Assembly (NCBI RefSeq): GCF_035594765.1
Contig: NC_085843.1
Span: forward strand, 122,737,971-122,801,970
Length of the DNA stretch: 64,000 nucleotides
Origin: Anolis carolinensis
Taxonomy: Eukaryota
Reading direction: 5' to 3'
Positions 29,631 to 30,535 of this stretch are shown here, one piece after another. The first letter of the stretch is position 1. Every line of letters starts with the position of its first letter. The notes beneath the pieces were generated by a model. It did not search any database. It had not been told where the DNA came from and saw only the letters and a program-made list of their open reading frames with translations. Made by a program: the position numbers and the translations under genes.

Positions 29631-30535
29631 TGTAAAGCTCCTAGGCAGCGCGAACACTGGGAACCAACACAGAGGCCAATAAACAATCTAATATCTTTAT
29701 TAAAGCAATAAAAATTTCAAACAAAAACAAGCAGAATAGATAGTCAAGCAGTTAACCTTTTAGGAAAGATCAAAGTTAGTCCAAAAAATGAAAGTCTTAT
29801 GTCCAATATTAGACTCCAAAGTCCAAAGTCCAATAACCAAAACACATTCAAACTTAATGGAAGTTTGAGTGGGGAAAGGAGCAAAGTTCCTCAGGAAAAT
29901 ACTTGAAGTAATAGTCCAGAGCAAGGTTTCAAGGCAAGGCTAAGGCTGTTCGTGGTGGATCTGAAACGCAGTCCAAACTTAGCAAGGGACGAGACACAAC
30001 ACCCGGTCTACTCGACGGTAAGCGTGCCAGCAGGCCGCTTGGAAGTTCAGGATCAAGAGACGATGTATTTTTCAATCAGAAGTTCAGTTGACACCGCAAC
30101 AGAGATTCTCTGCGCAGAACTTTTATTGAAGTCCAAGAGCTCCCCCAAAGCAGGTGCTTGACTCCTCAAATCTTCCCAAGAGAAACGAGCTGCTAACAAC
30201 AAGGTGCCAGATGCCTGCCTCTCCTATTCTTCCCAAGAGAACTGGCTTAGCCACAATCGCCTCATTCTGCTAATCTCACACTTCTCCTTAAACTTTGTTT
30301 TTGAGAGCGGTCTGTTTTGAAAGTAGCCCTTCTATCAAACTCTAAACTCTCTGGAGATCCGGGAAGAGCCGGCAACATCTCAAGGGCATTCCTAATTGGC
30401 TCTGGCACTGCAATGTCAACAGGAGACATCTGGAAAGGGATTGAATCTTGCTGAGGTGGGAAAAAACCCAAATCCTCTTCAGTTTGATCAGCAATGGCTG
30501 CGGGATCAGGGGCCAAAGGTGCCTGAGACATCACA
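29631..30535 (-). mobile_element. Solo LTR (Gypsy/BEL-type), family B
   Basis: tgt...aca termini with perfect 5-bp TSD accct (29626-30, 30536-40) inside CR1. Minus-strand AATAAA near 29696-29701 and an AT-rich TATA-like site near 30120. Confidence 0.93.
30262..30534 (-). CDS. Intact 90-codon frame in LTR U3; candidate chromatin-targeting peptide (EEDLGF...RRSVRLA)
   Basis: Starts at LTR base 2 and is co-linear with the frame at 43047-43325. Confidence 0.6.
   Translation of the reverse strand: MMSQAPLAPDPAAIADQTEEDLGFFPPQQDSIPFQMSPVDIAVPEPIRNALEMLPALPGSPESLEFDRRATFKTDRSQKQSLRRSVRLAE

What the first reader, a model, noticed from the sequence alone, without database searches (positions are those of the whole stretch)
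30262..30534. LTR B and LTR C peptides align with fixed motif spacing
B: VMSQAPLAPDPAAIADQTEEDLGFFPPQQDSIPFQ...FDRRATFKTDRSQKQSLRRSVRLAE*. C (43047-43325): VMTHGHGSPIPSAVVTDEEENLGFPPFQPEREPFQ...FSRRNYILLQKGVQQANRRSLRIAAK. LGF falls at residues 22-24 in both and PFQ at 33-35. F-x-RR is followed at identical distance by RRSxR[LI]A. Both frames are stop-free for 90-92 codons although the intervening DNA is diverged. This pattern suggests protein-level selection inside an LTR.
Basis: partly seen in the sequence, partly recalled or inferred. Interest (0 to 1): 0.8.

Follow-up and report, generated by a model that had tools for sequence, protein, structure and literature searches.

The report
Integrase tail encoded inside retrotransposon LTRs
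The two look-alike peptides are leftover copies of the last 90 amino acids of a lizard jumping gene's integrase, whose reading frame runs on into the terminal repeat; the tail is under protein-level selection and ends in a predicted arginine-rich helix that likely helps the enzyme grip chromatin.

Summary
B (30535-29631) and C (43326-42388) are solo LTRs of two subfamilies of a Gypsy chromovirus; UniRef relatives are from Anolis carolinensis. In 12 of 12 full-length C elements examined, the pol frame (protease, RT, RNase H, integrase, chromodomain) runs through the polypurine tract into the 3' LTR and stops at the end of the C peptide. The peptide is therefore the U3-encoded tail of Pol, not a separate LTR gene. 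Variants shared among B copies are enriched for synonymous changes (44 syn/42 non-syn/0 stop); private variants are neutral (21/79/4). Selection acted on the replicating elements, not on solo LTRs: only 31 of 56 B copies keep the frame. The tail is an acidic, likely disordered linker plus a predicted basic helix ending in RRSxR[LI]A, close to HMGN-like nucleosome-binding words. Snake and other squamate relatives show an acidic-then-basic tail without that exact word. Pol running into the 3' LTR is known from plant chromoviruses. A conserved 90-residue tail behind an intact chromodomain in a vertebrate lineage was not found in my searches. Its function is inferred.

The parts
29631..30535 (-). 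Solo LTR B (905 bp, TGTGATG...TTTACA), older subfamily; copies 91-95% alike
30262..30534 (-). B copy of the Pol tail frame (90 codons plus stop; 19 of 31 open B copies have 95 codons)
30463..30471 (-). LGF of the acidic-hydrophobic N-terminal motif in B (residues 22-24)
30268..30339 (-). B basic end, FDRR to RRSVRLA (residues 66-89)
30536..30540 (-). Target-site duplication AGGGT, 5' side of B
29626..29630 (-). Target-site duplication AGGGT, 3' side of B
42388..43326 (-). Solo LTR C (939 bp, TGTGATG...GTGACA), 100% identical to both LTRs of a full-length element elsewhere in the genome (L061)
43047..43325 (-). C copy of the Pol tail frame (92 codons plus stop), identical to the last 92 residues of Pol in L061
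43056..43133 (-). Predicted basic helix (tail residues 65-90) holding RR...K...RRSLRIA
   Evidence: (model of a C-family copy, L133)
42935..42941 (-). TATA-like word of LTR C, downstream of the tail's stop; places the tail in U3 (inferred)
42450..42455 (-). AATAAA polyadenylation-like signal of LTR C

Best explanation
The two peptides are the last 90-95 residues of the Pol polyprotein of a lizard Gypsy chromovirus, encoded in the first 280 bases of the LTR, and their predicted basic end helix likely acts as a second chromatin-gripping arm of the integrase beside the chromodomain. Shown: in full-length elements pol has no stop at the chromodomain but reads through the polypurine tract and the TG of the 3' LTR to the peptide's stop. 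The frame is under purifying selection in lineages that replicated and decays neutrally in solo LTRs. From established biology: U3 of both new LTRs is copied from the 3' end of the RNA, so 5' and solo LTRs carry silent copies of the tail. Inferred: the tail stays on mature integrase; the acidic part is a flexible spacer; the fixed 17-residue spacing reflects a helix with its conserved arginines on one face; this face binds nucleosomes or DNA during target capture. About 0.97 for the Pol-tail identity, 0.9 for selection on the protein, 0.5 for chromatin or DNA tethering as the job.
For: Pol runs into the 3' LTR and ends at the C peptide's stop in 12 of 12 full-length elements; 9 of 12 are one unbroken 1256-codon frame. 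Pfam order PR, RT, RNase H, integrase, SH3, chromodomain at 1090-1138, then the tail. The 150 best-scoring of 21,456 candidates all match chromodomain plus tail in one frame, 147 of 150 without a stop (chosen by score, so biased). In 29 of the first 30 of 340 junction matches the chromodomain end or linker is in frame with the tail. A B-type copy shows the same in-frame junction (L166). Six UniRef Anolis proteins end in such tails (P0002-P0007). Selection in B (54 of 56 copies kept): shared variants 44 syn/42 non-syn/0 stop against private 21/79/4 (p 1.3e-5); the one shared indel in the tail is 9 nt, while 9 of 10 shared indels after the stop are not multiples of three. D (30 of 34 kept): shared 26/18. 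Without CpG columns: B 25/26 against 56/177 in five control frames (p 6e-4); D 17/14 against 45/128 (p 0.0025). The motif's first arginine is AGG in B and CGC in C, D and F. AlphaFold2 gives low confidence for the linker and a helix at pLDDT about 85 for the end. Six conserved basic columns cluster on one helical face (resultant 0.70, shuffle p 0.019). Viper, rattlesnake and amphisbaenian relatives have the same junction word, an acidic stretch and a basic end.
Against: No binding, translation or processing was measured. The helical-face test was made after seeing the alignment and is modest. The model rests on 14 close sequences, has pTM 0.19 and gets the chromodomain wrong. Selection is weaker than in pol (pairwise dN/dS mostly 0.2-0.4, up to 0.68 in one close pair, against 0.06-0.12). 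The young C family shows no synonymous excess (shared 2/5, few variants). B tail against the same frame after the stop is only p 0.047, and D shared against D private without CpG is p 0.10. The second B-type junction (L165) is out of frame with its chromodomain, in a copy with several breaks. Many chromoviruses of other hosts have only a short or unrelated extension, and 0 of 105 single-chromodomain hits have RRSxR[LIV] behind the domain, so the tail is not a general need.
Confidence: 0.6

Rival explanations
1. The end of the tail is specifically an HMGN-like arginine anchor that docks in the H2A-H2B acidic patch. This is a narrower form of the best explanation.
For: 13 of 26 open D copies read RRSARIAA, one residue from yeast Dot5 RRSARIAT and close to HMGN RRSARLSA. 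The three arginines that Dot5 needs (positions 1, 2, 5; PMC13347269, passages) are basic in 88-100% of open copies of all five groups.
Against: Snake and amphisbaenian tails end in other basic words (QRSMKHL, RKTMGLL, RPVSLRPKR). The upstream F-x-RR and the K/R at 73 are as well kept and lie outside the motif. The region is predicted helical, while arginine anchors mostly bind extended (recalled). The word is short.
Confidence: 0.25
2. The tail is a bipartite nuclear localisation signal for integrase, like the C-terminal signal of Ty1 integrase.
For: Two basic clusters (RR and RRSxR) lie 13 residues apart in all five groups. Classical linkers are 10-12 residues and Ty1 uses 29 (PMC2490736, passages). 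Snake tails end in KKKR or RRRH.
Against: The Anolis second cluster has arginines only; the importin-alpha major site normally needs a lysine (recalled). A signal bound in extended form does not need an indel-free linker or a K/R kept at 73.
Confidence: 0.2
3. The tail is a tolerated read-through with no specific job; selection only keeps it open and soluble.
For: dN/dS is several times that of pol, the middle varies freely in length (85-97 residues), and other lineages have short extensions.
Against: Single residues stay invariant across groups whose synonymous sites are near saturation (E20, F24, P26, F63, R65, S82, R84), with codon swaps; no shared early stop in B or D.
Confidence: 0.1
4. 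The frame is an independent small LTR gene started at its own ATG (codon 2), or a host-adopted peptide made from solo LTRs.
For: The ATG is in frame and kept in all 12 aligned Anolis tails.
Against: The ATG is part of the terminal TGTGATG; snake relatives have valine there. The frame lies upstream of the TATA-like word and is fused to pol. Private changes in solo LTRs are neutral, and 15 of 16 private indels break the frame.
Confidence: 0.03
5. The conservation is at DNA level (enhancer or att sites in U3) and the peptide likeness is incidental.
For: The first two codons are the LTR terminus, so V-M is probably fixed by DNA.
Against: The synonymous excess appears in the tail's frame only, not in frames +1 or +2; arginine codons differ between families.
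Confidence: 0.02

Closest known systems
Plant CRM group A chromoviruses with the CR motif (PMC3059260, passages; PMC6317226, passages)
   Same: The pol frame extends into the 3' LTR and the LTR-encoded part is a conserved integrase C-terminus. The LTRs also begin TGATG.
   Different: In CRM the CR motif stands in place of the chromodomain and is tied to centromere targeting. Here a chromodomain is kept upstream of the polypurine tract and the tail is added behind it. Listed copies lie all along the chromosomes (not tested formally).
Bingo1-4 and Bingo7 chromoviruses of Beta (PMC3605345, passages)
   Same: Chromodomain upstream of the polypurine tract, with the ORF extending into the LTR.
   Different: Plant elements with group II chromodomains; the passages I read give no conserved motif or selection test for the extension.
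Vertebrate Sushi-like chromoviruses (group named in PMC3601003, passages; placement of this family recalled, not tested); UniRef 'Gypsy retrotransposon integrase-like protein 1' of Anolis carolinensis
   Same: Same domain order; the UniRef gene models already include the tail as unannotated sequence.
   Different: A Labeo relative (P0015) has an extension of about 18 residues. No Pfam family matches the tail.
HMGN-like acidic-patch motifs of HMGN, Dsup and Dot5 (PMC13347269, passages)
   Same: RRSxR[LI] word with arginines at 1, 2 and 5.
   Different: Those are host chromatin proteins with measured binding. Here the word ends a predicted helix on a retrotransposon integrase, and binding is unmeasured.
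Ty1 integrase C-terminal bipartite NLS (PMC2490736, passages; targeting role in PMC7459421, search listing only)
   Same: An integrase C-terminal tail with two basic clusters.
   Different: Copia element; signal not LTR-encoded (recalled); 29-residue linker.

Membership tests
Ty3/Gypsy chromovirus | LTRs with TG...CA ends and 5-bp target duplication | tested here: met
   Exact duplication in 11 of 12 full-length C elements, one mismatch in the twelfth; LTR pairs differ at 0-3 sites
Ty3/Gypsy chromovirus | gag, then pol in the order protease-RT-RNase H-integrase | tested here: met
   Pfam on L061
Ty3/Gypsy chromovirus | Chromodomain at the integrase C-terminus | tested here: met
   PF00385, E 6e-08, above cut-off, Pol 1090-1138
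Ty3/Gypsy chromovirus | RT tree places it among vertebrate Sushi-like chromoviruses | not tested
   No tree built; relatives by similarity are from squamates and a fish
CRM group A | Pol extends into the 3' LTR | tested here: met
CRM group A | CR motif in place of a chromodomain | tested here: not met
   A chromodomain is present upstream of the polypurine tract; the tail was not aligned to CR motifs directly
CRM group A | Centromeric concentration | tested here: inconclusive
   Listed copies are spread along the large chromosomes; centromere positions not known here
HMGN-like acidic-patch motif | RRSxR[LI] with arginines 1, 2 and 5 | tested here: met
   compared with PMC13347269
HMGN-like acidic-patch motif | Nucleosome binding that depends on the acidic patch | not testable with these tools
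   Needs a bench assay
Classical bipartite NLS | Two basic clusters 10-12 residues apart | tested here: inconclusive
   13 residues in all five groups
Classical bipartite NLS | Lysine in the major-site cluster (recalled rule) | tested here: not met
   Second cluster is RRSxR in nearly all open copies
Separate U3 accessory gene (as retroviral nef or sag; recalled) | Own start or splice, apart from pol | tested here: not met
   In-frame continuation of pol; valine in place of methionine in snake relatives

The most novel reading that the evidence does not exclude
A vertebrate chromovirus lineage turned the first third of its LTR into coding sequence for a second chromatin-reading module. Its integrase pairs a methyl-lysine chromodomain with an LTR-encoded, HMGN-like arginine anchor for the nucleosome acidic patch, arrived at independently of the plant CR motif. 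Solo LTRs then keep a fossil record of how this targeting arm evolved, even for subfamilies whose internal parts are almost gone.
Probability: 0.25. Interest if true: 0.68.

Novelty: new variant of a known kind. Interest (0 to 1): 0.4.

Why it matters
It explains coding-type conservation in LTRs that repeat annotation treats as non-coding, and warns against calling such frames new LTR genes. It points to an unannotated integrase module in a very young, abundant vertebrate retrotransposon family. What vertebrate chromovirus integrases use to pick chromatin is open. A short natural peptide with a word nearly identical to a proven acidic-patch binder makes one answer cheap to test.

Tried and rejected
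Third-position test on B against C alone: uninformative, near saturation. First pattern for B-type 3' junctions found nothing because its spacing was too short; a corrected one found 1 match. B internal sequence is rare: 0 of the first 30 and 1 of the next 30 B loci had pol directly upstream; a second pol hit (L082) lies on the other strand behind a truncated LTR. L167 first looked like a non-autonomous element; a search with its LTR returned copies of a different stretch of about 540 bases within it, so L222-L250 were left out. The within-family count for F did not run (script stopped). No family or structure match for the tail: Pfam 0 families, PDB sequences best E 2, ESM Atlas no usable hit; these blanks do not show novelty. 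Complex prediction of H2A-H2B with the last 38 residues of C: no verdict. Sequencing runs: no RNA holder listed, so no reads were laid. Earlier scan findings: none by sequence or place; four by words, none on this kind of feature. Paper searches for a prior account of this tail (listings only, apart from the six papers read in passages) showed none. The library lacks most subscription journals and repeat-database reports, where the overlap may be noted; supplements were not read.

Full report
Observation. B reads 90 codons from 30534 and C 92 codons from 43325. The motif positions are as reported: LGF at 22, PFQ at 33, and 17 residues from F-x-RR to RRSxR in both. The alignment scores 93 against a shuffle maximum of 57 in 2000. 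Each frame begins at the second base of a solo LTR: B 30535-29631 with target duplication AGGGT, C 43326-42388 with ATAAG/ATAGG.

What the LTRs belong to. C is a very young family. The 40 scored copies are 98-100% identical and many come in pairs 5413-5414 bases apart. Twelve such pairs were fetched. Each holds a 330-codon gag frame and a pol frame, and the two LTRs differ at 0-3 sites. Pfam gives protease, RT, RNase H, integrase, SH3 and a chromodomain, so this is a Gypsy chromovirus. UniRef relatives at 70-92% identity are from Anolis carolinensis, the likely host.

The key point. Pol does not stop after the chromodomain. It reads through the polypurine tract (…EEGDS) and the TG of the 3' LTR and ends at the stop of the C peptide in 12 of 12 elements; 9 of 12 are one unbroken frame of 1256 codons. 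The 150 best of 21,456 candidates match chromodomain plus tail in one frame, 147 without a stop (selected by score). A junction pattern has 340 matches. Of the first 30, 29 are a third group (D) with the same in-frame fusion and one is a broken B copy. A fourth group (F) behaves the same, and a fifth tail type (E) was seen in 2 LTRs. For B, internal sequence is scarce. L166 shows the end of a chromodomain in frame with a B-type tail; L165 has decayed pol upstream with several breaks and is out of frame at that point. The tail's stop lies about 100 bases upstream of the TATA-like word in C, D and F, so the tail is in U3 (inferred; no transcript ends were mapped). Reverse transcription copies the 3' U3 into both LTRs (established), which is why 5' and solo LTRs show the frame.

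Selection. I split variants into private ones (arising after insertion) and ones shared by three or more copies (mostly inherited through replication). In B (54 of 56 copies kept) private changes are neutral, 21 synonymous, 79 non-synonymous, 4 stops; shared changes are 44, 42 and 0, with 44 of 86 at third positions (p 1.3e-5 and 5e-4). Frames +1 and +2 show no excess. The one shared indel in the tail is 9 bases, while 9 of 10 shared indels after the stop are not multiples of three. In D (30 of 34 kept) shared changes are 26/18. Leaving out CpG columns keeps the result against five control frames (B p 6e-4, D p 0.0025). Weaker results: B tail against the same frame after the stop is p 0.047; D shared against private without CpG is p 0.10; C has too few variants and no excess (2/5). 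Shared variants were counted once per codon type, not on a tree. Pairwise dN/dS between natural open copies is 0.17-0.39 within B, 0.26-0.40 for C against D or F and 0.19-0.68 within D, against 0.06-0.12 in the last 400 codons of pol; B against C is near saturation. The open tail survives in 31 of 56 B, 45 of 46 C, 26 of 34 D, 1 of 2 E and 27 of 27 F copies. So selection acted on replicating elements and solo LTRs decay. The window's own two frames are open because they have not yet decayed.

Anatomy of the tail. The first 60 residues hold 9-12 acidic and at most 1 basic residue; the last 32 hold 7-9 basic ones. Invariant columns in 12 tails include E20, F24, P26, F63, R65, S82 and R84. Length varies only in the middle. 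The first arginine of RRSxR is AGG in B and CGC in C, D and F. AlphaFold2 gives the linker low confidence and the end a helix at pLDDT about 85, but the model is shallow and misfolds the chromodomain. Conserved basic columns 65, 66, 73, 80, 81 and 84 cluster on one helical face (p 0.019, a test chosen after the fact).

Beyond Anolis. A profile search of 1.84 billion representatives finds the tail itself only in 3 of the best 150 hits, one confirmed as Anolis. Chromodomain proteins of Rhineura, Vipera, Crotalus, Podarcis and Salvator carry a like junction word (DSV or DGV; GSGV in Salvator) and then an acidic stretch; the Rhineura and snake ones end in a basic patch. That these lie in LTRs is inferred from the junction word, as I had no DNA for them. 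None has RRSxR[LIV] (0 of 105 single-chromodomain hits).

Mechanism. Shown: identity as Pol tail and purifying selection. Inferred: the tail stays on integrase and its basic helix, on a flexible acidic spacer, binds nucleosomes or DNA alongside the chromodomain (about 0.5). The narrower acidic-patch reading rests on RRSARIAA in 13 of 26 open D copies against Dot5 RRSARIAT (PMC13347269, passages) and is weakened by the snake tails (0.25). A bipartite localisation signal as in Ty1 integrase (PMC2490736, passages) fits the 13-residue linker but lacks a lysine (0.2). These jobs can coexist. A jobless extension, a separate LTR gene and DNA-level constraint are each unlikely for the reasons given under rivals.

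Comparison and novelty. Pol extending into the 3' LTR is described for plant CRM group A, where the LTR encodes the CR motif in place of a chromodomain (PMC3059260; PMC6317226), and for Bingo elements of Beta (PMC3605345); I read passages of each. The element works like these in layout. It is not a CRM member, as the chromodomain is kept. Eight paper searches showed no account of a conserved tail in vertebrate chromoviruses, but the library is incomplete and UniRef models already contain the sequence. Verdict: a new variant of a known layout; the surprise is explained, the function is open; interest 0.4.

Noticed in passing
loci L135, L149, L151, L168, L191 and C copies: Between subfamilies synonymous divergence in the tail (0.8-1.0) is about 2.5-3.5 times that in the adjoining pol (0.26-0.41), while within D the two are alike. 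This suggests recombination that mixes pol among subfamilies with distinct LTRs, or faster change in U3.
   Followed up: partly
G000 listings: Young elements with pol are rare on the small contigs C7 and above (1 of 150 for C, 7 of 150 for F), whereas 12 of 40 old B LTR places lie there. May reflect insertion bias, faster conversion to solo LTRs, or how the search picks candidates.
   Followed up: no
window 29258-29716 and 30664-30981 (-): LTR B is inserted in the reverse-transcriptase part of a LINE fragment (CR1-like by recalled motifs) and splits it.
   Followed up: no
window about 17560-18400 (-): An older LTR-like stretch with a similar T-rich 3' part ending in ACA; its 5' part does not score with the tail profile.
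   Followed up: partly
window 43327-43331 and 42383-42387: LTR C is identical to both LTRs of a full-length element on another chromosome, yet its target duplication has one mismatch.
   Followed up: no
L061:4531-5520 and 806-4573 (-): gag and pol overlap in different frames, implying a ribosomal frameshift. The sequence behind the 5' LTR is GTTTGACTC..., not TGG, so the primer site is not a plain tRNA site and may be self-priming (recalled for Tf1/Sushi elements; untested).
   Followed up: no
window 22474-24090: A 596-base perfect inverted repeat around a LINE 3' fragment (RTE-like by recall, I1; ORFs 22684-23181 and 23029-23880).
   Followed up: no
window 47836-48492 and 1476-2281: Two tandem arrays: a 14/72-base unit array with open frames on both strands, and an 85-base array of LINE-derived units.
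   Followed up: no
L157, L158 (G000:C1:94.28 Mb): Two neighbouring D copies share the same truncated 3' LTR 5.6 kb apart, a likely tandem duplication.
   Followed up: no
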